Translations under genes and position numbers: made by a program | Notes under the pieces: model-generated | The model's database searches: none | What the model was told of the DNA's origin: nothing | What the model saw: the letters and a program-made list of their open reading frames with translations, nothing else | Shown here: positions 1,817 through 42,143 of the stretch, in pieces | Numbering within the stretch: the stretch's first letter is position 1 | Layout: every line of letters begins with the position of its first letter | Assembly (NCBI GenBank): GCA_035765895.1 | Contig: DASTWL010000080.1 | Coordinates: forward strand, 8,597 to 72,596 | From: Verrucomicrobiia bacterium | GTDB lineage: Bacteria > Verrucomicrobiota > Verrucomicrobiia > Limisphaerales > DSYF01 | Length of the DNA stretch: 64,000 bases | Direction of reading: 5' to 3'

Positions 1817-1892
1817 TTGAGTTGCCTCAAAGGAATTCCGCCTCTGTCAAATTGCAGCGTCTCAAAGCGAAAGGAGGCGCAAAACACCCTTT

Positions 1893-15960: not shown

Positions 15961-16053
15961 CAAGCTTGCCGCAGGTGGTAGAAAGTGCGGCGACAGGCTT
16001 GCCTCGCTGCGTGAGTTGGCGTAAAAGGCGCTCAATCAGAACAAAGGACCAGC

Positions 16054-16704: not shown

Positions 16705-16743
16705 ACTCCAAACGAGGCAGTCCCAATACAAGAAAGGCCATCC

Positions 16744-17250: not shown

Positions 17251-17251
17251 A

Positions 17252-17752: not shown

Positions 17753-17754
17753 TC

Positions 17755-18444: not shown

Positions 18445-18517
18445 TACTGGGCCGGCGTGACGGGCCGGGTTTATTGAAATTGCGCTCAGTGCAGTCAACC
18501 TCGTGAAGGGAGCAACC

Positions 18518-19015: not shown

Positions 19016-19033
19016 ACAACGGGAGGACGCAAC

Positions 19034-24092: not shown

Positions 24093-24219
24093 AGTAAAGA
24101 GCGTCCGCGCCGATGAACAGGGCGAAGTGCGGGAAATCCCGTTTGTCCGCCGGACCGGCAGTTTTTCACCTTTACAAAAAACCCGTTCGGCCGAACGTGA
24201 AAGCGAATCCCATCACGCC

Positions 24220-24738
24220 ATGAAAACACATCTGCTATGGTTGTCGTTGTCCCTGGTGCTGCTGCTGCCTGCCGCCCGCGCGGAGGAAAAGCAACTCTGG
24301 GCGAAATCCTTTCTCGGCAAACCGGCGCCCAAGTTCGTCGTCGAGAAGTGGCTGTCCACCGAGCCGGACCGGCAGGGCAAATATGTGTTGATTGATTTCT
24401 GGGCCACCTGGTGCGGACCGTGCCGGCGCGCGATTCCCGAGCTGAACCAATTCCACAAAAAGTTTGGCGACAAGCTGGTGGTCATTGGCGTTTCCGACGA
24501 GCCGGAGGAAAAGGTGAAGGCGATGAAGGATCCCAAGATCGAGTATTTCAGCGCCATCGACCCGCAGCAGCGCATGAAGAAGGAACTCCAGGTGACGGGC
24601 ATTCCGCACGTCATCCTCATCGATCCGCAGGGCATCGTCCGGTGGGAAGGATTTCCGTTGCTGCAAGGGCACGAACTTACTGAAAAAGTCATCGCCGACA
24701 TTCTGGCGGTCAAACCCGCGCCGGCGCCCGCCAAATAG
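24220..24738 (+). CDS. TlpA-like periplasmic thiol:disulfide oxidoreductase
   Basis: Signal peptide MKTHLLWLSLSLVLLLPAARA and a thioredoxin motif FWATWCGPCRRAIPEL. Start at ATG 24220 within the longer track ORF. Confidence 0.85.
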   Translation: MKTHLLWLSLSLVLLLPAARAEEKQLWAKSFLGKPAPKFVVEKWLSTEPDRQGKYVLIDFWATWCGPCRRAIPELNQFHKKFGDKLVVIGVSDEPEEKVKAMKDPKIEYFSAIDPQQRMKKELQVTGIPHVILIDPQGIVRWEGFPLLQGHELTEKVIADILAVKPAPAPAK

Positions 24739-24747
24739 CCGGCGCAT

Positions 24748-26301
24748 CTATTGCCCCCGCACGCGAAAGAAGGCGCGGGCAGCATCCAATGGCAGGCTCA
24801 CGTCGGGCACATTGGAAGTCATCCACGGCGCCCACGCAGCGGGTGACAGGCTGGGGCTGCGCTCCACCACGAAGGGCGCCGTGCCGCCGGTCCACGTGAG
24901 TTCCAGTTGGCTGCCCGCGGGTTGCAGCTCCAGCGCAATGGCCGGGGCGACGGTAATGACGACGGCATCGCGGGCCACGGCATGCACACCATCGTCAGCG
25001 CTCAACAGCAGGGTGTATTGGCCCGGCCCGCCAAATGTCACCGTGGTGTTGGTTTGTTGTGCATCGCCGAACGTGGCGGTTCCCGGGCCGGCGTAGAGCG
25101 TCCATTGCACGGTGGGTGCGAGGTTGCTGAAAGTCACCGTGCCGGCGAGTGTCGCGGTTAGTCCGGCGACCACCGTTTGGTCCACTCCGGCGTTGGCCGT
25201 CGGCGCGCCGGGCGAGCGCGGTCCTTCGGTGGGGCCGGTGGTCTGCACCACTTCAAAATTGGTGATGCCGAGGGTGCTCAGGTGATCGAAACATCCGGCG
25301 GGCCAGCGGTCGTCGGGGGTGACGGAGATGGAGAAGAAGTTTCCGTTGTCGGCCACCAGCGCGCCGTATTTTTTCAAACCGAGCAGCACGGCCTTCTCCT
25401 CCAGAGTCCAAGCTGGGTTGATGACAAAGGAGGATTTCAATCGCAGCCGCTGGCCCATCATCGGCAGGTTGGCGCTCGTGTTGGTGCCGGGCGCAGCGTA
25501 ATGCGTGGCCGGGTAGAGGTTCGTGCCGTAACGAGTGCGTTTCACCACCAGCCGCATCGCGTGCTCCACCATGCCGCGCTCGCATTCGTCGAAGCGCACC
25601 AGCGCCGGAAACATCGGCAGCCCCGCGGCGTCGCCGGAAGTCCAGCCCGGCGGGCGCAGGGCGTTGGTGTTCAAGTTGAACATGGCCCCGTTGGCCGCCG
25701 ACCAGTTGGTGCCGGTGCGCGCGGTGCGCCACGTTTCAAACAGGCGGCCCGTGCCCGGCTGCACCATGATGGCGTGCCGGTCGCTGCCATCGTCATTTTG
25801 CTGCCATTGGTCGAGCGTTTGACCGCCGGTTTCCGAGGGCCAGGTCTCAATGGGCAGGTTGTCCGGAACCGGATACTGCCCCACGGGAAACGTGCCGCCA
25901 TTGAGGTCGGATTCATCCGGGTAATCCAGAAAATCGACGGGCCGCAGCGGCTGGTCGTCCGGCACCAGCACGAAATTCATTTCCTTGAACAGGCGCAGCG
26001 TCTGGCGGCTGGCGGCGAGATCGTTGGTGATTTGCGCGATCATGGCGGCCGAATTGGCCAGCAACGGCCGGCGCGAGATGTCCTCGTTCCATGGATTGGT
26101 GAGCGGCAGGATTTGCAGGGCCGACACCACCGCGTCGGCGTTGGTGGTGTTGAACAGATGCACGTCGGTCACCACGGGCACCGGCCCGAGGATGCGCCCT
26201 TCCTGGTTGATGCGCTCCGCGTGACTCGTCAGGGCGAAGCTGAGGCCGACCGCGAGAAGCCAAAAATTTCGCCGGCACGGAAGAGGCAGCGTGTTTTGCA
26301 C
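24748..26301 (-). CDS. Secreted hypothetical protein with a PKD/Ig-like region and C-terminal FFRVR module
   Basis: Signal peptide (FWLLAVGLSFALTSHA). A PKD-like segment reads ANAGVDQTVVAGLTATLAGTV...YTLLLSADDG. The C-terminus is LELTWTGGTAPFVVERSPSLSPAAWAPW...ARAFFRVRGQ. Confidence 0.7.
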   Translation of the reverse strand: MQNTLPLPCRRNFWLLAVGLSFALTSHAERINQEGRILGPVPVVTDVHLFNTTNADAVVSALQILPLTNPWNEDISRRPLLANSAAMIAQITNDLAASRQTLRLFKEMNFVLVPDDQPLRPVDFLDYPDESDLNGGTFPVGQYPVPDNLPIETWPSETGGQTLDQWQQNDDGSDRHAIMVQPGTGRLFETWRTARTGTNWSAANGAMFNLNTNALRPPGWTSGDAAGLPMFPALVRFDECERGMVEHAMRLVVKRTRYGTNLYPATHYAAPGTNTSANLPMMGQRLRLKSSFVINPAWTLEEKAVLLGLKKYGALVADNGNFFSISVTPDDRWPAGCFDHLSTLGITNFEVVQTTGPTEGPRSPGAPTANAGVDQTVVAGLTATLAGTVTFSNLAPTVQWTLYAGPGTATFGDAQQTNTTVTFGGPGQYTLLLSADDGVHAVARDAVVITVAPAIALELQPAGSQLELTWTGGTAPFVVERSPSLSPAAWAPWMTSNVPDVSLPLDAARAFFRVRGQ

Positions 26302-26378
26302 AAAACCAAATGAGCAAGACCAACGCCAGCCGCGCTTGCCGGGGCATTGTTCTTCCCTACATTGCCGGTGGGCCGTTC

Positions 26379-28568
26379 ATGAGCACCGCGCGTCTTACCA
26401 CTGGATTCCATCGCCTGTTCGAGCATTCCGTGCTGAAGACGGACGTAGCCCGGGCGTTGCGCAGTTCGGTGGCGTTCGTCGGGGCGTGGATGGTTTGCCT
26501 CGTAACGGGACATGCCAGCGTGGCGCCCTTCATGGCCACGGCGGCACAGAACATCGCCCTGGCCGATGTGCGGGGCGATTATCATGCGCGTTTCGCCATT
26601 CTGCTGCTGATGACACTGGTGATGGCCGCGTATGCCTGGACGGGCACGCTCGTGGGCGCCAACCCGGTCAGCGCGATTCTCATGATGGGCGCGGTCGGTT
26701 TGATGGGCGGCGTCTGGCGGCATCTCAGCGGTGATTACGGGCCCAGCCTGGCCATCGTGTCGGCGTTGCTGTTTCTCATCGCGCTCTCGCAGCCGGGCAA
26801 CTGGCAGACTGGCGCCGCGCTCGCGGGCTGGATTGCCTTGGGCGGCGCGGGGGCCATCGTCTTGCAGGTGGCGGCGTGGTTTTTCCGTCCCCAACACGCC
26901 CTGCGCCATGCCGTCGCCGAAAGCTGGGTGGCCGCTTCCGACTTGATCACCGCGTTGCGCACGGAGACGAACGAGGGCGAACAATGCCAGGCCAGTTCAA
27001 CCAGCCAGGAAAACGCGCTGCGCGCCACGCTGGACCGGACCAGCCAGGTGCTTGAAGCGGCCGTCGGCCGGAAACCTTCGCCATTTCTCACCCACCTGGA
27101 CAGCACCCATCACCTGGCAGCGCGGCTGGCCACTCGCGTGGCCGCGTTCAGCACGGCGTGGGAGCCGTTGCGGTCGCGTCCGGAGTTTGCCGGCGTCGGC
27201 CCCACGATTGATTCCGTGTTGCGGGCGCTCGCCAATGCGGCGCGCTCGGTGGCGCTGACCCTGATCACGCACCGCGCCGAGCAGTTCGTCTCTTTGCAAG
27301 TCCGGCTCCGACGGTGTGAACACTTGATTCGGGTGCTGGATGAACGCTGGTCGCAGGCGCCGGTGGCGGATTCCGATCTGACGCAGGCGCGGCAGGCGTT
27401 GGCGCAGGTCGCGGAAATGTTGCCCGTCATCCGGCAAACCCTGGCGGAAACCGCGGATCACACCGGCCCGGGAAACAGTTTTCCGCTGCGGCTGCCCGAG
27501 CTGGGCGGATTCTCGATGCGCGCGCTGGGTTCGTGGTTGAACCGCGCGCCGCAGCTTGACCCCGCGCTCGTGCGTTACGCGGCGCGCATGAGCGTGGTCA
27601 CGATGCTGGCCGTGGCCATTTATGAATGGACGCGGGTGCCGCACGGCTACTGGATTGCCTTCACGGCGTTGGTGGTGTTGCAGCCCGATTACGGTTCAAC
27701 GCGGCAGAAGGCGGCCCAGCGCATCGTCGGAACCATCGCGGGCAGCCTGCTGGGCAGCGCGTTGTTGTGGGTCAAACTGCCCTTGGGAGTAATGCTGGCC
27801 TTCGCCGGTTTGATGGCCTTTTGCTTCGGCTATTTTCTGCGGCGCCGTTACGGGCTGGCGGTGTTCTTCGTCACGCTGATGCTGGTGCTCATCACCGAAG
27901 CCGTGGTGCCGGTGCGCCTGGATTTCACCGCGAGCCGGCTGTTGTCCAACGTGGCGGGCGGCGGCATGGCCCTGCTGGCGGCGCTGTTTTTCTGGCCGCG
28001 CTGGGAGCGAGCGCAATTCCCGCCCATCATGGCCGGCGCCGTGCGGGCGAATCACGCCTATCTCGCCGCGCTCGGCCGGCGGCTGCAATCAGGGGAACCT
28101 TTCACAGGGGACGCCGTTCACAAGAAGCGCCAGGCGGAGCGGGCGAACAGTCTGGCGGCCGCTTCCCTGCAGCGGCTGCTTGGCGAACCTGCGGCGCGCC
28201 GGGAGAACGTGGACTGCGCCGCCGCCCTGGCCGCCTACAATCAGCGGATTACCCGGGCACTGACCGTGCTCGCGCTTCAGCTCAACCAACGCCAGCGACT
28301 AGCCGGACCGGAACTGCCCGCCATCGTGCGAATCGTCAGCGAAGCCTTGGAGCGGCTGGCCCGGCTGATTGAGGCGGGCTCCCCGGCGGACGCCATCGAA
28401 GCCCGCGCCGGCACGGTGCAGGCCGTGGATGCGTGCTGGCCGAATGCCCCAGGCCCCGGACCGGCCCCGTCCGCCGGGCTCGCTTTCAATCAGTTGGTCA
28501 AAGTGGCCACCGAAATTGACGCCATGAGCCTGGCCTTGAAGACGAACTCCGTGACAGCGGCCGCTTGA
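26379..28568 (+). CDS. FUSC/YccS-family membrane protein (aromatic-acid exporter-like)
   Basis: Two multi-TM blocks are separated by a long helical region. The second block carries LQPDYGSTRQKAAQRIVGTIAGSLLG, typical of the FUSC family. The start could be 26310. Confidence 0.7.
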   Translation: MSTARLTTGFHRLFEHSVLKTDVARALRSSVAFVGAWMVCLVTGHASVAPFMATAAQNIALADVRGDYHARFAILLLMTLVMAAYAWTGTLVGANPVSAILMMGAVGLMGGVWRHLSGDYGPSLAIVSALLFLIALSQPGNWQTGAALAGWIALGGAGAIVLQVAAWFFRPQHALRHAVAESWVAASDLITALRTETNEGEQCQASSTSQENALRATLDRTSQVLEAAVGRKPSPFLTHLDSTHHLAARLATRVAAFSTAWEPLRSRPEFAGVGPTIDSVLRALANAARSVALTLITHRAEQFVSLQVRLRRCEHLIRVLDERWSQAPVADSDLTQARQALAQVAEMLPVIRQTLAETADHTGPGNSFPLRLPELGGFSMRALGSWLNRAPQLDPALVRYAARMSVVTMLAVAIYEWTRVPHGYWIAFTALVVLQPDYGSTRQKAAQRIVGTIAGSLLGSALLWVKLPLGVMLAFAGLMAFCFGYFLRRRYGLAVFFVTLMLVLITEAVVPVRLDFTASRLLSNVAGGGMALLAALFFWPRWERAQFPPIMAGAVRANHAYLAALGRRLQSGEPFTGDAVHKKRQAERANSLAAASLQRLLGEPAARRENVDCAAALAAYNQRITRALTVLALQLNQRQRLAGPELPAIVRIVSEALERLARLIEAGSPADAIEARAGTVQAVDACWPNAPGPGPAPSAGLAFNQLVKVATEIDAMSLALKTNSVTAAA

Positions 28569-28583
28569 GAGCGCCCGGGGGGA

Positions 28584-29150
28584 TCAGGGCGGCGAGGTGG
28601 CCTCCAGTTCGTTCAATCTCGGGCCAATGACGCGCCGGGCGTGCTTGAACGATTCGGAGAGCATGACGAAGAACACCACGACCGCGATCGCCGTGATCAA
28701 GGTGCTCCACCAGTGACGCGGCCGGAAGCGTTTCAGCGACGGCGCGTAGGCGAGGAGTCCGAGTGCGGCCGCCAGCACGCCGACGGCATCCCAGCTCGCA
28801 CGCTGCCAGTAACCGCCGCCCAGGCGCACCCACATCCCAAACTCGTCGAACGTCAGCCCGAGGCCCACGCCGTAAAACGCCGCGGCCACGGTCAATTCAC
28901 GTCCGTGCGGCCGCCGGAACAACAGGTAGCCGCCCAGCCCGGCCAGCAGGAAAATGCCGTAATTCAGATGGTGAATGTGCGTGCCGCCCAGATGCACATA
29001 GAGGTCGGGCAATTGCCGCGACATGATCAGAAACACCACGATGCGCGCGGCCACGAAGGTCAGCAGAAAGCTGAACAGGATGACGCGCGCCAGCCGGTTT
29101 TTCCGGTCGGCGCGCGGCTCTGTGGGTGGCGCTGCGGCGGGTTCGGCCAT
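28584..29150 (-). CDS. Integral membrane protein, function unknown
   Basis: 188-aa ORF with 5-6 hydrophobic helices (THIHHLNYGIFLLAGLGGYLLF...). Confidence 0.55.
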   Translation of the reverse strand: MAEPAAAPPTEPRADRKNRLARVILFSFLLTFVAARIVVFLIMSRQLPDLYVHLGGTHIHHLNYGIFLLAGLGGYLLFRRPHGRELTVAAAFYGVGLGLTFDEFGMWVRLGGGYWQRASWDAVGVLAAALGLLAYAPSLKRFRPRHWWSTLITAIAVVVFFVMLSESFKHARRVIGPRLNELEATSPP

Positions 29151-29178
29151 GGGAATGCGCGCGGTGCGGCGTGGGCGT

Positions 29179-29598
29179 TCAGCGCAGTCCGCCCAAAATC
29201 CGGGCGGCTTTCACGGCGTCACGCTCCGTGTCCAACGCAATGTGGCAGACGAATTTTTTGCCGATGGCCGCCGCCGCGAGGCCGCGCAGATTCAGGCCGC
29301 CGTCGGCCAGCACCGCGGCGATGCGGGCGCCCTGCCCGGACTTGTTTGCGCCTTCCACCCGCAATGTATGCAGGCTGGCGGTCTTCGTGAAGCCCGCCGC
29401 GCCGGCGGTGCCGACTTGTTTGGCGCCCTGAATCGGCGTTACAAACACCACGCTCCTCCCGGGGTGCGCCCCGTCGCGTCGCGCGATGACGAATTCCAGA
29501 TTGGCGCCCGCTTCGGCCAGCGTTTTGAGTTTGGCCGCCAAAGCGCCCGGCCGGTCGGGAATGGATGCGGCCCATGTGTCCACGCGTTCTGATTTCAT
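29179..29598 (-). CDS. Stand-alone tandem ACT-domain protein
   Basis: MKSERVDTWAASIPDRPGALAAKLKTLAEAGANLEFV... and a second ACT-like half (GQGARIAAVLADGGLNLRGL). A GGAGG sequence lies upstream of ATG 29598. Confidence 0.6.
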   Translation of the reverse strand: MKSERVDTWAASIPDRPGALAAKLKTLAEAGANLEFVIARRDGAHPGRSVVFVTPIQGAKQVGTAGAAGFTKTASLHTLRVEGANKSGQGARIAAVLADGGLNLRGLAAAAIGKKFVCHIALDTERDAVKAARILGGLR

Positions 29599-29812
29599 AA
29601 AACCTCCAGTTGTCGCCTGCGTTTGTTTCACCGCGCCGAAGCAACCGGCCGGGAAGCGTCCGGTGATCGGTTCGGTTTCGGTTGGAAGATGCGCCCTAAC
29701 TTCCGGCACGCGGCGGGGCTTGGCAAGTGCGTTCCCCACGGGGCTGCGCGGTTTGTCCGCGAACCGTTGCTCCGGCCGTTGAACGCCGTCGCGGGCCGCC
29801 TGTCTCAACGGC

Positions 29813-30001
29813 ATGAACGCAGCAGGCTTTCGGCGGCGGGCGCGGCACTGGTGGCGGACGGAAATCCGGCCCTTGTTGATTCTGGTCCTGGTGTTGTGCT
29901 CGATCCGCTCGTCGCTGGCCGACTGGTATTCCGTGCCGAGCGGTTCCATGCAACCGACCATTCTCGTGGGCGACCGCGTCTTCGTGAACAAGCTCGCCTA
30001 A
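29813..30001 (+). pseudogene. lepB: Signal peptidase I, 5' fragment only (62 codons, then a stop at the junction)
   Basis: RTEIRPLLILVLVLCSIRSSLADWYSVPSGSMQPTILVGDRVFVNKLA* contains the TM anchor and catalytic-Ser box SGSMxPT. All downstream boxes, including the catalytic Lys, are missing. Confidence 0.75.
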
Positions 30002-30003
30002 CC

Positions 30004-30873
30004 AATGGAGTGCCGCCGACTGTTGGCGTGGTCACATTCAACGAGGTGCAGCGCGATCTGATTGAGGACATGCTCATGGATGAAGCCGCAAAGGACACGC
30101 AGTTTCAGGTTCGATACGTCGCCGAGCGTAACCGCGTTGAGAATGAGCAAGACGTTGGATTTTTCGTCAAGAATCTTGAATCTGTTCAGGGTGATGAACG
30201 CGACGTGATGATTTTCTCAACGACGTTTGGGCGTGATCCGCAAGGCCAATTCCGCCGCTTCTTCGGCCCGATCAATAGACAAGGCGGCGAGCGCCGCTTG
30301 AACGTCGCAGTGACACGCGCAAAAAAGCGTAACTACGTCGTCACCTCAATGCCCCTGCATGAAATCTCAGATGCCCTTGCTGGTGGTGCGCCCGTGGGCG
30401 CCACCGTAAGTGGACGCGATTACCTTCATGCTTACATGCAATATGTGAAGGCGGTTTCAAACCAAGACGCAGAGGCGCAAACCCAATCGTTACACGTTGC
30501 TGGGCGGCTTGCCGCATCTGCTGGTGAATCGCGTTCTGCTGGCAAGGAGGATTCATTGTTTGAAGCCGAAGTCCGCGACGCTTTACGTGCACTTGGCTAC
30601 AACATCGAATCTCAGGTGGGGGAAAGTGGTTTCCGGATTGATTTGGCTGTCGTGCATCAGAATCCGGAGCGCGGCTATATTCTTGGCATTGAGTGTGACG
30701 GCAAGGCATACCACTCAGAATGGTCGGCTCGCGCTCGTGATGTGTGGCGGCAACGTATTCTTGAACATCGTGGCTGGAAAATTCACCGAGTTTGGTCAAC
30801 AAACTGGTGGTTAGACCGTGGTTTTGAAATAAAGAAACTTGTAGCGCGGATTAAATCACTTGGCGGAAGTTGA
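30004..30873 (+). pseudogene. 3' remnant of a large SF1 (Upf1-like, AAA_12) helicase with a DUF559/restriction-endonuclease-like C-terminal domain
   Basis: VGVVTFNEVQRDLI...VQGDERDVMIFS...GERRLNVAVTRAKK are helicase motifs V/VI. FEAEVRDALRALGYNIESQVGESGFRIDLAV...LGIECDGKAYHS...RILEHRGWKIHRVWSTNWW follows. No Walker A/B region lies upstream, and similarity starts exactly at the junction. Confidence 0.7.
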
Positions 30874-30892
30874 CCTCGACTCCTCACCCCGG

Positions 30893-30930
30893 CCCTCTCC
30901 TCACCCGATGAGGAGAGGGAGTTTTATTTT
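30893..30930 (+). terminator. Rho-independent terminator after the helicase remnant
   Basis: CCCTCTCCTC / ACCCGAT loop / GAGGAGAGGG (perfect 10-bp stem) followed by AGTTTTATTTT. Confidence 0.7.
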
Positions 30931-31279
30931 ATGGGGCGTTTACCCAGGGTATTCGCTGCGCTCAAACCCTGGGCTAATATCCTTCGCCCCTATAGGGCTT
31001 CGGTTTGGCTTCGCGGTCTTTGCAGACGGCCACCGAGGCGGCGCGGCAGCACCGCCCTACCGGAATCAGATTCGTGAAATTCGTGTCAGAATCCCGGCTC
31101 GCGACGACGCTCGCTCCACCGAATCCGTGCTTCATCTGTGTGAATCTGTGGCCAGGAATCGTATTCCATTCCCGCGCACGAGCAGACGGGATTGCAGCCA
31201 ATCCAACGCGGAGTGACGAGTGCAGATTGCGGAATGAAACGGCGCTTCGACCATGGGGGCCTGGATACTCCGGTTCGCG

Positions 31280-34200
31280 TCACCAGACGAGCACGCGGTA
31301 ATACATCTGCGGCGCATTCCACGGGCTGCGCGGGTCCGTGACAATGATCGCGGCGCCCGTGCCGGGGATTTGGTCTTCGATGATTTCCCACGTTTGCAGG
31401 TCGGTGGAGGCCTCCACGCGGTAGGTCCGGTTGACCGCCGAGGCAAAGGCGATCTGGTAATGGCCGTAAAGCCCGGTGGCGCTTGGCGGCTGCACGGCGA
31501 ATTTGGAACCAGGATCCTGTGGATCGGTGCCGGCCCAATACTCGCTCCAGGTCGGCACGCCGTCGCCATCCGGATCCTGCAGCTCCGCATTGGCGAAGTC
31601 GCTGGTGATGCCGTGGGCAATCAGCCAGGGAACCGGCGTGCCGTGCGGCAGCGGCGCGAAGGTTTCCACGAAGCTCGTCCCGTTCGTGAGCTGGAAGCTG
31701 GGGCCGTTCGTGGGATAAACGCTGTTGTCCACGGCGAACCCGCTGAAGGCGCTGGCGGGATCGGCCAAATCGCGCAGGTCAAAGCGGACCAGATCGCCAA
31801 AGGAGGCGAAAGGCAGATAGTTCGTCGGGCCCGGACTTGCCAGATCCAGCCAGAGCCCGCCGCTGCCGTCGTTGGTTCCGGAAACGCTCCAGCCCGCGAG
31901 AATTTCGCCCGGCGCGACAGATTGCAACGCGTAGGTCATCGGCCAGTTGGGCTGCACGTGCAGGCGCAGTTGGCGGACGTAGCGCGGAATGTAGGTGGCC
32001 TGCAGCGTCACCGATGCCGGCGCTACCGCGGGATCGTTCACCAGCCGCAGCGACCCCACGGTCACGTCGCCGGCATAGCTCGCCGGATTGAAATACGAGA
32101 TGATGAAGTTGGTCGTGTAGTTGGTCACCGGCGGATCCACGGTGTCGTCCACCTCCATGCTGATGGGATTGGTGGGCGAATCGGCCGTGAATCCTTGATA
32201 GGAAATTTGGAACGAGGGCATGAAGGGTTTGTTGCTCCGCTTCAACGTGGCCCACCGCACGATGTAGCGTCCAGCCAGGTCCTTGGCGACCTGCGACAGT
32301 TCGTCCGGAATGTCCGTTGCCACGTCGGCCGTGTAATAACGTCCGCCGGTTTGCGCGGCGATCCGGGTCAGATCGGCGGCGTTCGGCTGCGAACCGATGG
32401 CCACGCAGAAGACCTTCACGCTGGCGTTCGTGGCGGCATCGATCACGTCGTCGGCCGTGTTGATGCTGGATTCATCCTGGCCGTCCGAAAGGCAGATGAC
32501 GCAGCGTTGCGCCGCGGCATTGGTGGCCGCCAGGTCGGCGATGGCCGTTGAAAGCGCGTCCCAACACAGGGAGCCGGCCGGGAATCCTTGGACGTAATTG
32601 GTCCAGATGCCGTTGATGGCCGCGTGCAGCGCCGCGCGGTCCGAGGTCAGCGCGAGAACTTGCTGCGGGTCCGCGTCGTCGCGGTGGAACTCGTAAACCC
32701 CAATCAACGCATCCGGCGGCAGGCTGTCCACAAATGCGTTGGCCGCGGTCGTGAGATTGTCCACCGCGTCGGAGATGCCGTTGGTGTTGGCATCGCCGTT
32801 GGCCAGCGAGGCGATGCTGGCGGTGAAATCCAGGACCAGGTTGGCCAGGATCGGCTGGTTGCCGGGCCGGGCGCGGTTGCTGGCCGGGGCGATTTGCGCG
32901 CCGGTTTCCGAGGCGCTGATCACCTTGTCGTCCTCCCTGCAGGTCACCGACAGCAGCCGCGGCGGCACCACGACCGCGTGATCGGCGGTGGGATCGCTGC
33001 CGTCGCGCAGAGAGAACTCGAACTCCAGCAGATAGGGCGACGCATAGTTCGTTTTGACATCTTCAATCGCGAGCCCCGCCACTTGCGCATACCCAAAGCT
33101 GAGGTGCAGGTTCGTCGTCGCCGCGCCCCAGAGATTGCTGGCGAGCAGGGTGACGTCGTATTCGCCGCCGTAGAGCGGCACGCCGGTGATGTTTCCCGTC
33201 ACCGGATCGACGTGCAGGTTCAGCGGCAGACCCGTGGCGCCAAAGCCGGTGGGTGAACCGCTGGCCGTGATTTGATAGTTGAACGCGGCGCCTTCCGTGC
33301 CCGTCGCCGTGACGGCGCTGGTGATGGCCGGTGCCGAGGCGACCAGGCTGAGCATCAGCGTTTGCACATCCTGCGCGCACTCGTTGCCGGTTCGCAGCGT
33401 CACCTCAAACAGTCCGCTTTCCAGTGGCACGCCCGCGATGACGCCATTCGTGGCATTGACCGCCAGGCCGGCCGGCAACCCAAAGGCGCCAAATTCCGTC
33501 GGTGAATGCAGCGCGGTGATGGTGTAGGTGAACGGCTCGCCCTGTTTGCCCGTGACTGTCAGTGAACTCGTTATGGTCGGGGTTTCGCCCAGCACCATCA
33601 ATTGCGCCAGCCGGCTGGTCACGGCGCCAAAGGCATTGCTGATGACCACGGAATACAGCCCATCGCCGCTGGACGTGACGTGATTCAGGGCAAGGATGGC
33701 ATTCGTTGCGTCCGTAATCGGCAGTTCCTGAAAGAACCATTGGTAGGCAAACGGAGATGTGCCATCGGCCACCACCTGGAACGCGGTGTTGTCGCCGCAA
33801 ACCACGGAGCCATCCTGCGGCTGCTCGACAATCCACGGCGGAATGGCCAGGGGCGTCACGGTGGCGGGGGCGCTCAGCGCCGCGCCGTGGCCGTTGTAAA
33901 CCTGCACGCGGTATTCGCCCGCGTCGGCGGCTTGAATGTTGGCCAGATGCAGGGCCGGGGCGGTCGCGCCGTTCAGGTTCGTGCCATTGTGGGACCACTG
34001 GTAGGATAACGGCGCATCGCCGGCGGCCAGGACGCGGAGCACGGTGTCCTTGCCCAGCGCCACCGCCTGGCTGAAGGGCTGGATGGTGATCGTTGGCGAA
34101 CCGTCACCGACCAGCGCCAGATTGTGATACAAACCCGCGGCCACGCTCGCGACATGGGAAAGATTCGACGAGGTGGTCGCCTGGCCAAAATCATTGCGGC

Positions 34201-35053
34201 CCCAGGCCCAAACCTTGCCGGCCGCCGTCAACGCCACGTTGTGCGCGCTGCCGGCGGCGATGGCCACCACGTTGCTCAAGCCGGCCGGAATGTTCGTCTG
34301 CCCATCGGCATTGTTGCCCCAGGCGCGCAGCGTGCCGTCACTCAGCAGCACCAGGCTGTGCGCGTCCCCTGCCGCCACGGCCACCGCGTTGGAAATACCA
34401 GCCGGGACCCCGGCCTGACCGGCTGCATTGTTGCCCCAGGCCACCACTGTTCCGTCAGCCTTCAGGGCAAGGCTGTGACCGTTGCCGGCCGCGATGGCGA
34501 CCACATTGGACAAGCCCGGCGGCGGGAGGTTGGTGCCATCCCAACTGACGACTGTCCCGTCGCTCCGCAGCGCAAGTTCGTGATCATAACCCGCCACGAT
34601 GGCCGTCACATTGGTCACGCCCGCAGGCACTGCGCCGGCTTGCGAACCCCAGCCGACCACGGTGCCATCGCGCTTCAACGCGAGGCTGTCGCCGTAATTC
34701 GCGGCGATGGCGAGGACATTGGTCAGATTGGCGGGAACGGTGGTTTCGCCAAACGAGCCGCCGCCCCACGCCACCACCGTGCCGTTGTCACGCAACGCGA
34801 GGCTGTGCACGCCGCCGCCCGCCAGCGCCGTGACGTTCGTCAAGCCGGGCGGGACGTTGCACTGGCCATCGTTGTTGGCACCCCAGGCGAGCACCTGGCT
34901 GCCCGCATGCAGCGGCGCAGCCGTCACCAGCGCTCCGCCCATGAGCAGCGACAGGAACAACCTTTTCCGGCGCGTCCGGGGGGACGCGGATGGTTTCAGT
35001 GATGAGTGCAAAAAAAACAGCCTCCCAGGCGAAGTGAAAAAAGTGCGTTCCAT
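31280..35053 (-). CDS. Giant secreted multidomain protein: 7-blade RCC1-like propeller, 2 Ig (I-set-like), 2 cadherin/dystroglycan-like Ig, vWA, TSP3-like Ca-binding motif, C-terminal YYRV module
   Basis: Seven VxAWG blades. The Ig regions read YQWSHNGTNLNG...AGEYRVQVYN and YQWFFQ. The vWA-like region is VICLSDGQDESS...VKVFCVAIG...AAQTGGRYY, followed by DPDGDGVPTWSEYWAGTDPQD. The C-terminus is YRVEASTDLQTWEII...MYYRVLVW. Confidence 0.85.
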   Translation of the reverse strand: MERTFFTSPGRLFFLHSSLKPSASPRTRRKRLFLSLLMGGALVTAAPLHAGSQVLAWGANNDGQCNVPPGLTNVTALAGGGVHSLALRDNGTVVAWGGGSFGETTVPANLTNVLAIAANYGDSLALKRDGTVVGWGSQAGAVPAGVTNVTAIVAGYDHELALRSDGTVVSWDGTNLPPPGLSNVVAIAAGNGHSLALKADGTVVAWGNNAAGQAGVPAGISNAVAVAAGDAHSLVLLSDGTLRAWGNNADGQTNIPAGLSNVVAIAAGSAHNVALTAAGKVWAWGRNDFGQATTSSNLSHVASVAAGLYHNLALVGDGSPTITIQPFSQAVALGKDTVLRVLAAGDAPLSYQWSHNGTNLNGATAPALHLANIQAADAGEYRVQVYNGHGAALSAPATVTPLAIPPWIVEQPQDGSVVCGDNTAFQVVADGTSPFAYQWFFQELPITDATNAILALNHVTSSGDGLYSVVISNAFGAVTSRLAQLMVLGETPTITSSLTVTGKQGEPFTYTITALHSPTEFGAFGLPAGLAVNATNGVIAGVPLESGLFEVTLRTGNECAQDVQTLMLSLVASAPAITSAVTATGTEGAAFNYQITASGSPTGFGATGLPLNLHVDPVTGNITGVPLYGGEYDVTLLASNLWGAATTNLHLSFGYAQVAGLAIEDVKTNYASPYLLEFEFSLRDGSDPTADHAVVVPPRLLSVTCREDDKVISASETGAQIAPASNRARPGNQPILANLVLDFTASIASLANGDANTNGISDAVDNLTTAANAFVDSLPPDALIGVYEFHRDDADPQQVLALTSDRAALHAAINGIWTNYVQGFPAGSLCWDALSTAIADLAATNAAAQRCVICLSDGQDESSINTADDVIDAATNASVKVFCVAIGSQPNAADLTRIAAQTGGRYYTADVATDIPDELSQVAKDLAGRYIVRWATLKRSNKPFMPSFQISYQGFTADSPTNPISMEVDDTVDPPVTNYTTNFIISYFNPASYAGDVTVGSLRLVNDPAVAPASVTLQATYIPRYVRQLRLHVQPNWPMTYALQSVAPGEILAGWSVSGTNDGSGGLWLDLASPGPTNYLPFASFGDLVRFDLRDLADPASAFSGFAVDNSVYPTNGPSFQLTNGTSFVETFAPLPHGTPVPWLIAHGITSDFANAELQDPDGDGVPTWSEYWAGTDPQDPGSKFAVQPPSATGLYGHYQIAFASAVNRTYRVEASTDLQTWEIIEDQIPGTGAAIIVTDPRSPWNAPQMYYRVLVW
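34063..34900 (-). repeat. Intragenic tandem repeats encoding the seven RCC1-like blades
   Basis: Periodic units of about 35-50 codons, each with GxxHSLAL...DGTVxAWG, visible at protein level and partly at DNA level. Confidence 0.7.
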
Positions 35054-35206
35054 ATCGGGCTTGAACCCTTAAGGAAGGGCTGCCCGCCACCGCAAAGCAA
35101 GCTTAAGATGTTGTCAATCTGGCTTCCCCGCCGTCTTCGGCCGGGGGCTTGGCGCCATGGGCGGCGCATTGAACCTGCCCCAAAAACTCATCGGCGCGGG
35201 CGGAAG

Positions 35207-37279
35207 CTACCAGATCTTCGCCCGCAGTTCCGGCGCCCGCCACATGGGATCGGTGGCGGTAATGCCGAAGGCGTCGTAGAACGACTGCACATTCACGAGC
35301 GGTCCGATGGCGCGGAACTGTCCGGGCGAATGCGGGTCCACGGTAACGAGCCGGCGTTGCTCGGCATCGCGGATGTTGGTGCGCCAGATTTGTGCGAATG
35401 AGATGAAGAACCGTTGTTCGGGCGTGAAGCCATCGATTGTTTTCCGCTGCGCCGGATTTTTGGCCAAAGCCCGTTGCAAGGCGTCGTAGGCAATGGTCAC
35501 GCCACCGAGATCGGCGATGTTTTCTCCCAGCGTCAACTTGCCGTTGACGTGCAGGCCCGGCAGCGGTTCATAGGCATTGTATTGATCCACGACCTTTTGG
35601 GCGCGGGCCTCGAAATTCGTGGCGTCGGCGTCCGTCCACCAGTCGTTCAGGTTGCCGTCCGCATCGAACTTGCGCCCCTGGTCATCGTAGCCGTGCGTGA
35701 TTTCGTGGCCGATGACCACGCCGATGGCGCCATAATTCACCGCGTCGTCCATGGTCATGTCGAAGAACGGCGGCTGCAGGATGCCCGCGGGGAAGACGAT
35801 TTCGTTTTGGGACGGATTGAAGTAGGCGTTGACGGTTTCCGGCGTCATGTGCCATTCGGTTTTATCCACCGCCTTGCCCAGGCGGACCAGCTCCCGCCGG
35901 TCCTCAAACGCCGCGGCGCGTTTGACATTGCCCAGAAAATCATCGCGCCGGATTTCGAGGCTGGAGTAATCACGGAACTTGTCCGGGTAACCAATCTTCT
36001 GCGTGAACCGGTCGAACTTTGCCAGGGCTTTCGCGCGGGTCGCGTCGGACATCCAGTCCAGCTTCAGCAGATGATCGTGAAAAACCTCCTTCAGGTTTTT
36101 CACGAGTTCGTTCATTCGCGCCTTGGCTTCCGGCGGGAAATATTTTTCGACGTAAAGCTGGCCCAGCGCCTCGCCGATGCAACCGTCGATGACCTTGCCC
36201 GCCCGCTTCCAGCGCGGTTCCTGTTCCTGCTGGCCGCTGATGACCTTGCCGAAGAACGCGAAGTTTTCCTGTTCGACCGCACGTTGCAGGAACGGCGCCG
36301 CGCCATGCAACAGATGCCAGCGCAAATAGACCCGCCAATCCTGGATCGGGCGTTCGGCGAGCAGTTTGTCCAGGGCCGTGAAGAACTCCGGCTGCCCGAC
36401 GATTTCGTAGTTGAGCGGCACGAGATTCTTTCCTGTAACTCCGGGTCCAGATGCCAGGCCATATTCGGTGAAGTAAACCGTCCACGGAATCGTCGGGTTG
36501 GCCTTTAAGAATTCAGCAGTTGTGAATTTGTTATAGTTTTTTTCCGGATTGCGCAGTTCTTCGCGGGCGCGGCTTGCCTTGGCCAGCGCCGTTTCCAGGT
36601 CCAGCACGATCGCGGCGTTGGTGGCGGCAGCCGCGGGTTTGTCGCCCAGCAACGCGAACATTTTGGTCAGATGCGCGCGGTATTTTTCCCGGACTTCGGC
36701 GAAGCTTTCCTTGAGATAATAATCCCGATCGGGAAGCGTCAGCCCACCCTGGCCGAGTTGATAGGCATAGATGGAACTGTTCTTTTCGTCCGGCCCTACG
36801 CCTGCGCCGAACAGCCCGCCAACACCGGTGCGATGGAAATCCGCCAGCAACGCGAATAGTTCCTTCGTTGAGCGGACGGAATCGATGCGCTTGAGATCGG
36901 CGGCAATCGGCTTGAAGCCGAGCGTTTCGATCCGATTGGTGTCCATGGCTGACGCGAAAAAATCACCGACCTGCTTTCGAGGCGTGTTGGGACCGGCGGA
37001 TTCCTGGCTCGCCGTTTCAAGGATTTCGTGAATCAAATACCAGTTGCGCTCGGCCAGCTCGATGAAGCTGCCCCAACGGGATTTGTCCGCCGGCACCGGA
37101 TTGTTTTTAGCCCAGTTGCCGTTGGCGAATTCGTAGAAATTCGTCCCCGGCGACACCGAACGATCCATGTAGCCGACGGAGAACCGCGGCACGACTGGTG
37201 GTTTGTCCGCGGCCGTGGAGGGCAAAACCATTACAGCAATGGAAAATGTGTAGCAGAAAAAGCGGGCGAAATTTTTCAT
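35207..37279 (-). CDS. pepO: M13-family zinc metallopeptidase (PepO/neprilysin-like)
   Basis: VIGHEITHGYDDQG (HExxH) and GENIADLGG (ENxADxGG). Signal peptide MKNFARFFCYTFSIAVMVLPSTAA from ATG 37279; the longer track ORF to 37582 is an extension. Confidence 0.9.
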   Translation of the reverse strand: MKNFARFFCYTFSIAVMVLPSTAADKPPVVPRFSVGYMDRSVSPGTNFYEFANGNWAKNNPVPADKSRWGSFIELAERNWYLIHEILETASQESAGPNTPRKQVGDFFASAMDTNRIETLGFKPIAADLKRIDSVRSTKELFALLADFHRTGVGGLFGAGVGPDEKNSSIYAYQLGQGGLTLPDRDYYLKESFAEVREKYRAHLTKMFALLGDKPAAAATNAAIVLDLETALAKASRAREELRNPEKNYNKFTTAEFLKANPTIPWTVYFTEYGLASGPGVTGKNLVPLNYEIVGQPEFFTALDKLLAERPIQDWRVYLRWHLLHGAAPFLQRAVEQENFAFFGKVISGQQEQEPRWKRAGKVIDGCIGEALGQLYVEKYFPPEAKARMNELVKNLKEVFHDHLLKLDWMSDATRAKALAKFDRFTQKIGYPDKFRDYSSLEIRRDDFLGNVKRAAAFEDRRELVRLGKAVDKTEWHMTPETVNAYFNPSQNEIVFPAGILQPPFFDMTMDDAVNYGAIGVVIGHEITHGYDDQGRKFDADGNLNDWWTDADATNFEARAQKVVDQYNAYEPLPGLHVNGKLTLGENIADLGGVTIAYDALQRALAKNPAQRKTIDGFTPEQRFFISFAQIWRTNIRDAEQRRLVTVDPHSPGQFRAIGPLVNVQSFYDAFGITATDPMWRAPELRAKIW

Positions 37280-37417
37280 GGAATTATCACTCGAATAATT
37301 TGGCAACGATGTGGGCAAGATGGAACGCTTTTCCTTCGCGCAGGTCAAACCAGCAGTCGATTTGCAGGAGGGTTCGCTTTCTGGTTGTTCTTCAGCCAAA
37401 TAACATGGCGGCCGAAT

Positions 37418-38800: not shown

Positions 38801-39428
38801 AAGTTCTCGCCGAGGATTTGATCGGGTTTGGGAAAGCGCGTCCCCACAATTCAGGTTCATTCTGAGTTTGTGGTGTGCGACCAACGACCTCCCAAAACGT
38901 TTTGAAAGGCAAGGAGCATTGAATCCGGCGCTGTGTCTTTGAATCAATCTTCGGATTGATGACAATGGTGCTGGATCTGACCGCTGGCCCACGTTTCCAC
39001 TCCCGCGCCATTCGGCGGACGGTTGAGTAATGTTCAGCCAAGTTCTTCACCACGGCGTCAATCGAAGAAATTTCTGCCAGTGTCAAATGACCCCAGAGAT
39101 TTTGCCAGTCGGTAGCAGAGAAGCGGGCGCAGCCAATCTCGACGATCCATTTGTGCGTCTGGGTTCGTTGTTCCCAGAAACCAACGATCATCAGAAAGTC
39201 TCGATCAATCTGGCGCTGGCGAAGAACGTCTCCCAGCCCAATCGGACTCCCAAGTTTGGCAGTCTTGATCGAGACGGGCAGATTGTGGAACTCGCTCGGG
39301 ACGGAAACGTGGTTGTTCTGATCGGGCGGCACATCCCATTTCTGCATGTAGTTGCCCGCATAACCCGAAAAGAAATGGTCGCGCACCCATTTCTCGAAGG
39401 TGAAACCATGCGATTGGACTTCAACCAT
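38793..39428 (-). CDS. Putative cognate type II restriction endonuclease
   Basis: 211-aa ORF convergent with the methyltransferase, with 3' ends overlapping by 8 nt. Same lower-GC composition (line 38761-38820 is 32/60 GC). A possible PD-x16-SIK variant of the PD-(D/E)xK motif (VPPD...PVSIK) is present. No family assignment is possible by eye. Confidence 0.5.
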   Translation of the reverse strand: MVEVQSHGFTFEKWVRDHFFSGYAGNYMQKWDVPPDQNNHVSVPSEFHNLPVSIKTAKLGSPIGLGDVLRQRQIDRDFLMIVGFWEQRTQTHKWIVEIGCARFSATDWQNLWGHLTLAEISSIDAVVKNLAEHYSTVRRMAREWKRGPAVRSSTIVINPKIDSKTQRRIQCSLPFKTFWEVVGRTPQTQNEPELWGRAFPNPIKSSARTFN

Positions 39429-39446
39429 AGGCTATTACTCGTGTGT

Positions 39447-42143
<2,697 letters not shown>

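What the first reader, a model, noticed from the sequence alone, without database searches (positions are those of the whole stretch)
29813..30873. Abrupt junction: a 5' fragment of signal peptidase I fused head-to-tail to a 3' fragment of a large SF1 helicase, with a step down in GC
Seen:
- The ORF 29813-30001 encodes only the membrane anchor and Ser box of LepB (SGSMQPTILVGDRVFVNKLA) and stops at a TAA, where LepB normally continues.
- From the next codon (about 30004) a different frame shows helicase motifs V/VI plus a DUF559/restriction-endonuclease-like domain. No Walker A/B region lies upstream.
- Composition changes at the same point. Line 30121-30180 is 28/60 GC, versus 39/60 in a typical background line.

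Inference: there are three possibilities. A deletion may have joined two truncated genes, this may be the edge of an acquired island, or it may be a chimeric assembly join. LepB is normally essential, so an intact copy should exist elsewhere if the join is real.
Basis: partly seen in the sequence, partly recalled or inferred. Interest (0 to 1): 0.6.

Follow-up and report, generated by a model that had tools for sequence, protein, structure and literature searches.

The report
Scar joining two broken genes
This is a real but ordinary recombination scar in a Verrucomicrobial genome: the first 62 codons of a signal peptidase gene are joined directly to the last fifth of a horizontally acquired defence-type helicase-nuclease gene, in a rearrangement-prone stretch next to mutS.

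Summary
Window 29813-30001 encodes only the membrane anchor and Ser box of LepB and stops inside the Tyr63 codon. Related genes run 218-245 aa.

From 30004 a different frame encodes residues ~1119-1407 of a ~1,400-aa SF1 helicase. This piece carries motifs V/VI and an MTES_1575 nuclease domain. It best matches the PADLOC defence candidates PDC-S37 and Hhe. It keeps its own terminator and an Acido-Lenti-1-like hairpin.

GC falls from 0.66 to 0.53, and GC3 is 0.52 against 0.75-0.84 in the native neighbours.

The junction is not an assembly chimera. Two other assemblies contain it, one of them 99.1% identical with 16 SNPs.

Related contigs carry AhpC-lepB and/or lepB-mutS, and two (L054, L055) carry all three in order. 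Where the spacing was read (L054), the lepB and mutS stop codons are 11 nt apart. In the window, 9.4 kb of mosaic DNA replaces the lepB 3' end, and a further 5 kb separates AhpC from lepB'.

Neither a 62-aa LepB nor a stand-alone ~290-aa helicase tail is a conserved gene.

Verdict: two gene remnants joined by illegitimate recombination at the edge of acquired DNA. Interest is low.

One oddity remains. An independent copy of this helicase (L002) is broken within 1-3 codons of the same site.

The parts
23983..24738 (+). AhpC/TSA thioredoxin-like gene. It is the ancestral upstream neighbour of lepB and serves as the left synteny anchor.
   Evidence: Pfam AhpC-TSA, E 2.7e-17. Its homologue lies directly upstream of lepB in L042, L043, L054 and L055.
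24748..29610 (.). Extra 5-kb block between AhpC and lepB'. It holds a PKD-domain protein (-), a FUSC transporter (+), a 188-aa membrane protein (-) and an ACT-domain protein (-). It is native-like in composition.
   Evidence: Pfam hits. The block is absent between AhpC and lepB in L054, L055, L042 and L043. Its genes are arranged differently next to mutS in the closest relatives L117 and L118. GC3 is 0.76-0.84.
29611..29812 (+). lepB upstream region. It includes a degenerate copy of the mutS 3'-end repeat found upstream of lepB in relatives.
   Evidence: Alignment A3 and sequences. No sigma-70 consensus promoter was found.
29813..30001 (+). lepB' : the 5' remnant of signal peptidase I. It keeps the start codon, TM anchor and Ser box, and ends in TAA formed at the junction inside the Tyr63 codon.
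   Evidence: Pfam S26 positions 5-48 of 168. It is 57-85% identical to the N-termini of 80 related lepB genes, which run 218-245 aa. No Lys box or GDNR box occurs anywhere in the window.
29998..30004 (+). Breakpoint interval. lepB homology ends at '...GCC TA' and helicase homology is certain from 'AAT GGA GTG'. At most 3-5 nt of microhomology is possible (CTA, or CTNGC).
   Evidence: DNA alignment A1. tblastn start points are window 29998 and P0121 residue 1119.
30004..30873 (+). hel' : the 3' remnant (289 codons, about 20%) of a ~1,400-aa SF1 helicase with a C-terminal MTES_1575/Vsr-like nuclease. The family matches PDC-S37 and Hhe. The reading frame is open and the conserved residues are intact.
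   Evidence: Pfam. PADLOC PDC-S37 E 7.8e-83 and Hhe E 1.5e-46. It aligns to residues 1122-1407 of the 1412-aa P0121. All 47 columns that are at least 90% conserved in 113 full-length relatives are retained. GC is 0.529 and GC3 0.517.
30893..30930 (+). Intrinsic terminator of the helicase gene: an 11-bp stem followed by a T-run.
   Evidence: Terminator scan and fold. The terminator is conserved in L005.
30950..31003 (+). Acido-Lenti-1-like two-hairpin repeat element with an enlarged first loop. It marks the right end of the helicase-derived segment.
   Evidence: Rfam RF01687 scores 24 bits in the window (below the gathering score of 37), 46.8 bits at the homologous place in L005 and 29.7 bits in L003. 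Homology among the window, L005 and L003 ends just after the element.
31280..37582 (-). Genes with native-like composition inside the intervening DNA: a 1257-aa RCC1/Ig/VWA protein (31280-35053) and an M13 peptidase (35207 to about 37150).
   Evidence: Pfam. GC3 is 0.81 and 0.75.
37450..39428 (.). Low-GC3 pair next to mutS: a type II MTase-like gene (+) and a 211-aa PD-(D/E)XK-like gene (38793-39428, -).
   Evidence: PADLOC MTase_II E 2e-56 and REase_II E 5e-11. The 211-aa protein is full length relative to more than 100 homologues. The order mutS, 211-aa gene, MTase is collinear in L121 at 86% nt identity. GC3 is 0.49 and 0.60.
39447..42143 (-). mutS. It is the ancestral convergent neighbour of lepB and serves as the right synteny anchor.
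   Evidence: Pfam MutS I-V. mutS lies convergent immediately downstream of lepB in L047, L054, L055, L057, L078 and L079. In L054 the two stop codons are 11 nt apart.

Best explanation
The junction is a genuine illegitimate-recombination scar that joins two dead gene remnants. It sits at the edge of horizontally acquired DNA in a hypervariable stretch beside mutS, in a Verrucomicrobiota genome.

Shown:
- The ancestral locus had AhpC, lepB and mutS together. Related contigs carry AhpC-lepB and/or lepB-mutS.
- In this lineage the last ~525 nt of lepB and the short spacer before the mutS stop codon are gone.
- In their place, starting inside lepB codon 63, lies the last 870 nt of a ~4.2-kb low-GC defence-type helicase-nuclease gene, with its own terminator and hairpin element.
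- Further mosaic DNA follows, up to the mutS stop.

Inferred:
- Most likely a full-length helicase gene first landed beside or in lepB. A later deletion, with at most a few bases of microhomology (CTA / CTNGC), then removed lepB's 3' part together with the helicase's first ~1,118 codons.
- Alternatively, an already broken incoming fragment was joined to lepB directly.
- Nothing 'works' here. lepB' lacks the catalytic Lys box and box E. hel' lacks the entire ATPase core (motifs I-IV).
- The truncation is recent. It is seen only in sequences 99-100% identical, and hel' shows no decay.
- Signal peptidase activity must come from another gene outside the window.
For: Reality of the junction:
- The same sequence is present in L001 (ENA, 99.1% identity, 16 SNPs) and L035 (Logan).

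lepB' is a fragment:
- Pfam S26 matches positions 5-48 of 168 only.
- Relatives run 218-245 aa and read 'VNKLAYDLKVPF' across the break.
- No LepB C-terminus exists anywhere in the window.

hel' is a fragment:
- Full-length relatives are 1,200-1,600 aa, and the match is always to their C-terminal ~285 aa.
- Only residues 1119-1407 are found in the window.
- The family matches PDC-S37 and Hhe.

Foreign origin:
- GC3 is 0.52 against 0.75-0.84 for the native neighbours. The same subfamily is 51-53% GC in hosts of 58-63% GC.

Ancestral synteny:
- lepB-mutS adjacency occurs in 6 related contigs and AhpC-lepB in 4. The lepB and mutS stops are 11 nt apart in L054.

Locus plasticity:
- The closest relatives by MutS (L117 at 94%, L118 at 89%, L119 at 90%) have quite different gene content beside mutS and no lepB there.

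Recency:
- All 47 family-conserved residues are intact and there are no stops or frameshifts.
- Divergence from other copies has dN/dS of about 0.03, so it accrued while the gene was functional.

Decay is the usual fate of this subfamily:
- L002 has an internal deletion plus a frameshift.
- L003 has a shorter remnant with 3 hits at conserved sites.
- The P0040 contig has a truncated and frameshifted copy.
Against: - No relative was found that carries the intermediate state (intact lepB followed by a full-length helicase). The order of events is therefore inferred.
- hel' is perfectly preserved. It sits 2 nt after the lepB' stop, behind the lepB upstream region, and ends with an intact terminator. 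Expression of a 267-287-aa product from GTG 30010 or ATG 30070 cannot be excluded.
- The breakpoint nearly coincides with that of an independent copy (L002). A purely random deletion does not predict this.
- The three assemblies that share the junction might derive from related samples.
Confidence: 0.85

Rival explanations
1. Exapted stand-alone gene. The helicase tail (half of the RecA2 domain plus a complete MTES_1575 nuclease domain) is expressed from the lepB upstream region. It is retained because the nuclease module, or a dominant-negative or decoy activity, is useful.
For: - The frame is open over 289 codons, with all 47 family-conserved residues intact.
- Its own terminator is intact.
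- It starts 2 nt after the lepB' stop, with in-frame GTG/ATG codons at 30010, 30028, 30046 and 30070.
- Remnants of the same subfamily recur in other genomes.
Against: - ORF starts of 120 short homologues are spread evenly, with no peak at this residue.
- The other remnants carry frameshifts or substitutions at conserved sites.
- The junction is only seen in 99-100% identical sequences, so intactness is explained by youth.
- 5 of 6 SNPs between the window and L001 inside hel' are non-synonymous.
- No promoter consensus was found.
- Half a RecA2 domain is unlikely to fold on its own (inference).
Confidence: 0.08
2. Mobile 3' cassette or recombination hotspot. The segment from the W-L-A codons to the Acido-Lenti-1 hairpin is a discrete unit that is moved or recombined repeatedly. 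For example, the hairpin repeat might act as an element end, or CTGGC might act as a preferred crossover site. This would explain the same 5' boundary in the window and in L002, and the same 3' boundary in the window, L005 and L003.
For: - The breakpoints in the window and L002 lie within 1-3 codons of each other, although the copies are anciently diverged.
- Homology among the window, L005 and L003 ends just after the hairpin element, in three different contexts.
- Acido-Lenti-1 is a multi-copy repeat, with 89 representatives listed in the paper's supplementary table (PMC2864571).
Against: - L002 is plainly an in-situ internal deletion. The helicase's own residues 15-119 abut the tail.
- L003 and the P0040 contig break at other residues.
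- There are no flanking repeats, target duplications or transposase.
- The coincidence has roughly a 5% chance over the pairs compared (my estimate).
Confidence: 0.05
3. Assembly chimera. Two unrelated contigs were joined at a short shared k-mer.
For: - The composition step is abrupt.
- The Logan contig L035 ends only 26 nt past the junction.
Against: - The junction sequence is identical in three assemblies made by different pipelines. One of them differs at 16 other positions, so it represents a different genotype.
- L035 itself contains the junction plus 26 nt of helicase sequence.
Confidence: 0.02

Closest known systems
Type I signal peptidase LepB (MEROPS S26A, Pfam PF10502)
   Same: The N-terminal membrane anchor and the Ser box (SGSMQPT) are 57-85% identical to 80 related lepB genes. 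The locus neighbourhood is shared: related contigs carry AhpC-lepB and/or lepB-mutS.
   Different: Only 62 of about 235 residues remain. The Lys box, box D and box E (GDNRxxSxDSR) are absent. It is a pseudogene remnant, not an enzyme.
Hhe / PDC-S37-type defence helicase-nucleases (DUF4011 + SF1 AAA_11/AAA_12 + C-terminal Vsr-like MTES_1575/DUF559)
   Same: The fragment aligns end to end with the C-terminal ~285 residues of 1,200-1,600-aa members: helicase motifs V and VI plus the nuclease domain. PADLOC gives PDC-S37 E 7.8e-83 and Hhe E 1.5e-46.
   Different: The DUF4011 N-terminus and the whole ATPase core (about 1,118 residues) are missing. No defence function can be claimed. That Hhe is a validated single-gene defence system is recalled from the literature (Gao et al. 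2020), not tested here.
Gene remnants at the borders of genomic islands and defence islands, formed by illegitimate or homology-facilitated illegitimate recombination
   Same: There is an abrupt compositional step, truncated genes on both sides of the joint and at most a few bases of microhomology. The segment is absent from relatives at the same locus, and neighbouring content is highly variable.
   Different: There is no integrase, tRNA, att repeat or transposase. The foreign part at this edge is only about 1 kb, and the intervening 9.4 kb is a mosaic rather than one island.
Acido-Lenti-1 RNA motif (Rfam RF01687; Weinberg et al. 2010, PMC2864571)
   Same: A two-hairpin element with the conserved GGCUA linker lies directly after the helicase terminator. 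The homologous element in L005 passes the Rfam gathering score (46.8 bits against 37).
   Different: The window copy has an enlarged first loop and scores only 24 bits. It was found here in Verrucomicrobiota contigs rather than in Acidobacteria or Lentisphaerae. Its function is unknown.

Membership tests
Signal peptidase I (S26A) | N-terminal transmembrane anchor followed by the Ser box (S-x-S-M-x-P-T) carrying the catalytic Ser | tested here: met
   'LLILVLVLCSIRSSLADWYSVPSGSMQPT' is present. Pfam S26 positions 5-48, E 1e-07.
Signal peptidase I (S26A) | Catalytic Lys box (…KRVxGLPGD…) and box E (GDNRxxSxDSR) | tested here: not met
   The ORF stops at codon 63. Neither a motif search nor tblastn with full-length relatives finds these parts anywhere in the 64 kb.
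Signal peptidase I (S26A) | Full length comparable to orthologues | tested here: not met
   62 aa, against 218-245 aa in 71 of 73 related ORFs.
SF1 (Upf1-like) helicase / Hhe, PDC-S37 | ATPase core with Walker A and B (motifs I, II; Pfam AAA_11) | tested here: not met
   No AAA_11 hit. tblastn of 5 full-length relatives finds only residues 1119-1407 in the window.
SF1 (Upf1-like) helicase / Hhe, PDC-S37 | Motifs V and VI (C-terminal half of AAA_12) | tested here: met
   AAA_12 positions 111-193 of 195. VQGDERD and GERRLNVAVTRAK are conserved.
SF1 (Upf1-like) helicase / Hhe, PDC-S37 | C-terminal Vsr-like / MTES_1575 restriction-endonuclease-fold domain | tested here: met
   PF18741 positions 1-96 of 96, E 6e-35. 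The conserved D213, E230, C231, D232, R249 and W258 columns are intact.
SF1 (Upf1-like) helicase / Hhe, PDC-S37 | Anti-phage activity | not testable with these tools
   The only evidence is profile similarity to PADLOC models.
Integrative genomic island | Compositional deviation and absence from the same locus in relatives | tested here: met
   GC3 is 0.52 against 0.75-0.84. Related loci carry AhpC-lepB and/or lepB-mutS with nothing in between.
Integrative genomic island | Integrase or transposase, tRNA or att target, flanking direct repeats | tested here: not met
   No such genes lie between 24.7 and 39.4 kb. No flanking repeats surround the hel' segment. The mutS 3'-end motif occurs once in the window.
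Acido-Lenti-1 RNA (RF01687) | Score at or above the Rfam gathering threshold (37 bits) | tested here: not met
   24 bits in the window. The homologous site in L005 scores 46.8 bits.

The most novel reading that the evidence does not exclude
The tail of this helicase-nuclease, from the W-L-A codons to the Acido-Lenti-1 hairpin, is a recurrently generated unit in Verrucomicrobiota and possibly a selected or mobilised one. Either a recombination hotspot in the gene repeatedly releases a nuclease-bearing 3' module, or the module is kept and expressed from captured promoters (here lepB's) as a stand-alone effector or decoy.
Probability: 0.07. Interest if true: 0.5.

Novelty: new member of a known kind. 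Interest (0 to 1): 0.18.

Why it matters
The main value is for annotation and bookkeeping.

- Gene callers turn this scar into a fictitious 394-416-aa 'AAA domain/very-short-patch-repair endonuclease' protein (P0001) and a 62-aa 'signal peptidase'. Both should be flagged as pseudogene remnants.
- The case documents a very plastic locus beside mutS in uncultured Verrucomicrobiota. Defence-type genes arrive there and decay quickly.
- The lepB copy at this locus is dispensable in this clade. It is missing in the closest relatives and internally deleted in L059.
- If the breakpoint coincidence with L002 reflects a true hotspot, it would be a small but testable point about how large defence genes are dismantled.

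Tried and rejected
1. Inversion instead of deletion. An inversion would leave a reciprocal joint of helicase 5' to lepB 3'. Neither part exists in the window. mutS keeps its ancestral orientation relative to lepB', so any inversion would have to lie inside 30004-39446. Rejected.

2. A second LepB in the window. The weak tblastn hit at 52.6-52.9 kb is an ABC-transporter ATPase.

3. Synteny through GTDB species genomes, using the ACT protein as query. The best hit is 66% identical and there are no shared neighbours. Uninformative.

4. A conserved stand-alone ~290-aa family. ORF starts of 120 short homologues are evenly spread. The search returned nothing longer than 503 aa, which I take to be a length limit of that tool. 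The exhaustive search shows that the family is 1,200-1,600 aa.

5. A 'mini-helicase' family (N-terminus plus tail), as seen in L002. None of the 120 short homologues has an N-terminal match.

6. My recollection that the L002 upstream ORF is a DUF4011 domain. Pfam did not confirm this. Direct tblastn to P0121 residues 15-119 did (E 3e-27). P0121 itself has only a sub-threshold DUF4011 hit.

7. Programmed frameshift fusing lepB' to hel'. hel' is in the -1 frame, but there is no slippery heptamer before the TAA. Rejected.

8. The 211-aa gene next to mutS as a 5'-truncated restriction enzyme marking the right-hand scar. It is full length relative to more than 100 homologues. Rejected.

9. A single R-M/helicase island. 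hel' and the MTase pair share low GC3. However, they are separated by 6.3 kb of native-like genes, and the mutS/211-aa/MTase block is independently conserved in L121. Not supported.
Full report
**1. Observation.**

- ORF 29813-30001 encodes 62 residues: 'MNAAGFRRRARHWWRTEIRPLLILVLVLCSIRSSLADWYSVPSGSMQPTILVGDRVFVNKLA*'.
- It matches Pfam Peptidase_S26 only over profile positions 5-48 of 168.
- Three bases after the TAA, in another frame, 289 codons (30004-30873) match the last part of AAA_12 (positions 111-193 of 195) and a complete MTES_1575 restriction-endonuclease-fold domain (E 6e-35).
- GC drops from 0.66-0.69 to 0.51-0.55 exactly at 30000 and recovers near 31100.
- At third codon positions the contrast is sharper: 0.517 for the helicase piece, against 0.75-0.84 for AhpC, PKD, FUSC, the 188-aa membrane protein, ACT, lepB', RCC1, M13, mutS and Amt.

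**2. Both pieces are fragments, not short genes.**

*lepB.* A metagenome scan with the 62-aa peptide returned 80 related lepB loci at 57-85% identity.

- Read to their stop codons, 71 of 73 ORFs are 218-245 aa. Two (L053, L059) are damaged at other places, and none stops at codon 63.
- All read '…GDR[VI]FVNKLAYDLKVPF…'. The window's TAA is therefore the Tyr63 codon (TAY) cut after its second base.
- No Lys box or GDNR box exists anywhere in the 64 kb.

*Helicase.* An exhaustive HMMER search of 1.84 billion representatives found 5,004 relatives at E ≤ 1e-30.

- The best are 1,200-1,600 aa, and the match always lies in their C-terminal ~285 residues. For example, the fragment aligns to residues 1122-1407 of the 1412-aa P0121 at 65% identity.
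- tblastn of five full-length relatives finds only residues ~1119-1407 in the window.
- The word-indexed search listed only proteins of 503 aa or fewer. I take this to be a length limit of that tool.
- The N-terminal overhangs of those 120 short hits, relative to the window fragment, are spread evenly from -91 to +226 residues, with no peak at zero. There is therefore no conserved stand-alone ~290-aa family.
- The full-length family matches the PADLOC models PDC-S37 (E 6.8e-170 for P0121, 7.8e-83 for the fragment) and Hhe. It is a defence-type helicase-nuclease.
- P0121 sits as a solitary gene among housekeeping genes.

**3. The junction is real.**

- ENA contig L001 (sample ERZ23578823) is 99.1% identical to window 29206-30990. 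It spans the joint, and its 16 SNPs mark a different genotype.
- Logan contig L035 (SRR31827019) covers window 28404-30027 and contains the joint plus 26 nt of helicase sequence.
- Gene callers have fused the scar into a fictitious 394-aa protein, P0001. It corresponds to the mechanical ORF 29623-30873.

**4. What the locus looked like before.**

- In related contigs, lepB is followed immediately by a convergent mutS (L047, L054, L055, L057, L078, L079). In L054 the two stop codons are only 11 nt apart.
- lepB is preceded by an AhpC/TSA-like gene in L042, L043, L054 and L055.
- The window has the same two anchors in the same orientations: AhpC/TSA at 23983-24738 and mutS at 39447-42143 (-).
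- However, 5 kb now lies between AhpC and lepB'. It holds a PKD protein, FUSC, a 188-aa membrane protein and an ACT protein.
- 9.4 kb lies between lepB codon 63 and the mutS stop. That stretch is a mosaic:
  - hel' with its terminator (30893-30930) and an Acido-Lenti-1-like hairpin element (30950-31003), all low in GC;
  - a 1257-aa RCC1/Ig/VWA protein and an M13 peptidase, with native-like GC3 of 0.81 and 0.75;
  - a type II MTase-like gene and a 211-aa PD-(D/E)XK-like gene, with GC3 of 0.49 and 0.60.
- The block mutS, 211-aa gene, MTase is collinear in another relative, L121, at 86% nt identity. The 211-aa protein is full length relative to more than 100 homologues. That part is therefore older and is not a second scar.
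- The closest relatives by MutS (L117 at 94%, L118 at 89%, L119/L120 at 90%) each carry different genes beside mutS and have no lepB there. The PKD, FUSC and membrane-protein genes appear in other orders.
- The stretch beside mutS is thus a rearrangement hotspot, and the lepB copy at this locus is dispensable in this clade.

**5. The joint itself.**

- Nucleotide alignment with a copy that continues upstream (L005) shows helicase homology that is certain from AAT GGA GTG (30004) and possible from CTA (29998). lepB homology runs to GCC TA (30000).
- At most 3-5 nt of microhomology is involved (CTA, or CTNGC encoding Leu-Ala in both genes).
- No direct or inverted repeats, target duplications, integrase, transposase or tRNA flank the segment.
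- A simple inversion is excluded. The reciprocal joint is absent and mutS keeps its orientation.
- A frameshift fusion is implausible, because there is no slippery site before the TAA.

**6. Age and state of hel'.**

- The fragment has no stops or frameshifts. It retains all 47 alignment columns that are at least 90% conserved among 113 full-length relatives, including motifs V and VI and the nuclease-domain residues.
- Its divergence from other copies is old and occurred under strong purifying selection. Nucleotide identity is 75%, dS is saturated and dN/dS is about 0.03. That divergence therefore accrued while the genes were whole.
- The joint is found only in sequences 99-100% identical. 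The simplest reading is therefore a recent truncation.
- Between the window and L001, 5 of the 6 SNPs inside hel' are non-synonymous. This is weak evidence for relaxed constraint, because that contig has only 2.3x coverage.

**7. The same helicase subfamily is seen mostly as wreckage.**

Copies at least 75% identical to the window fragment occur in other Verrucomicrobial contexts.

| Copy | State |
|---|---|
| L002 | Internal deletion joining P0121-equivalent residues 15-119 to 1116-1407, at a W-L-A / TGGCTGGC microhomology, plus a 1-nt frameshift |
| L003 | Shorter tail directly after an intact Asp/Arg-hydroxylase gene; three substitutions at conserved positions |
| P0040 contig | Truncated and frameshifted copy |

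- L004 and L005 run off their contigs and are uninformative on this point.
- In every host the gene is 51-53% GC against 58-63% for the surroundings.
- The window, L005 and L003 share the 3' flank. Homology stops just after the Acido-Lenti-1-type hairpins, which score 46.8 bits in L005 (above Rfam's gathering score), 29.7 in L003 and 24 in the window.
- That motif is a multi-copy repeat of unknown function, described from Acidobacteria and Lentisphaerae and sometimes found near group II introns (PMC2864571).

**8. Unexplained.**

- The window's breakpoint (P0121 residue ~1119) and L002's (residues 1116-1118) lie within 1-3 codons of each other.
- The two copies are anciently diverged, and each is closer to L005 than to the other.
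- For one pair the chance is about 0.5%. Over the ten pairs among five truncated loci it is about 5% (my estimate).
- No 'mini-helicase' family and no ORF-start peak supports a functional reading.
- A local recombination hotspot remains possible.

**9. Conclusion.**

- The finding is a correct observation of an ordinary thing: a recent illegitimate-recombination scar. It joins the 5' remnant of the ancestral lepB to the 3' remnant of a horizontally acquired PDC-S37/Hhe-like helicase-nuclease gene, in a hypervariable stretch beside mutS of an uncultured Verrucomicrobiota bacterium. MutS relatives are annotated Verrucomicrobiota or Limisphaerales.
- Neither remnant can perform its family's function.
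- Whether hel' is transcribed from the lepB upstream region is untested.
- Interest is low. The residual novelty lies in the breakpoint coincidence and in the hairpin-bounded 3' flank.

Noticed in passing
L054:5905-5990 and 6715-6800; L057:5103-5197, 5896-5990 and 6718-6812; window 29700-29790 and 39447-39510: The last ~60 nt of mutS (CCRAACAAATCCATYTGCGGCGGCGGGGCG…TTGAGTTTGTCGCGGT) is duplicated as a direct repeat upstream of lepB in related contigs, so lepB is bracketed by two copies. L057 has a third, more diverged copy. The window keeps only a degenerate upstream copy. This resembles repeated integration at, or duplication of, the mutS 3' end.
   Followed up: partly
window 30950-31003; L005:1070-1114; L003:10773-10805 and 14783-14827: An Acido-Lenti-1-type two-hairpin repeat lies directly downstream of the helicase terminator in three different genomic contexts, and homology between them ends just after it. 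The motif was described from Acidobacteria and Lentisphaerae; these contigs are Verrucomicrobial.
   Followed up: partly
L002:9612-10831: The same helicase subfamily carries an internal deletion of about 1,000 codons. Residues 15-119 are joined to 1116-1407 at a W-L-A microhomology, with a 1-nt frameshift. The break lies within 1-3 codons of the window's breakpoint.
   Followed up: yes
window 29623-30873: A mechanical 416-aa ORF runs across the junction, antisense-free but out of frame with lepB'. Public gene calls (P0001, 394 aa) annotate it as one AAA_12/MTES_1575 protein. This is an annotation artefact.
   Followed up: yes
L059 and L053 (lepB ORFs): Two of 73 related lepB genes are damaged at other positions. 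L059 has an in-frame internal deletion (114 aa) and L053 a premature stop (115 aa). This hints that this lepB copy is not essential in the clade.
   Followed up: no
window 37450-39428: A type II MTase-like gene lies convergent with a 211-aa PD-(D/E)XK/Cas4-like gene, 18 nt downstream of the mutS stop. Both have low GC3 (0.49 and 0.60). The 211-aa protein belongs to a widely conserved Verrucomicrobial family of 211-214 aa with no Pfam domain.
   Followed up: partly
window 16000-19300: tblastx with L109 shows a ~50-aa unit repeated at about 16057, 16747, 17237, 17758, 18521 and 19037. This suggests a series of paralogous genes or domains.
   Followed up: no
window 1001-2000: A second GC trough (0.53) as deep as the one at the finding. 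Not examined.
   Followed up: no
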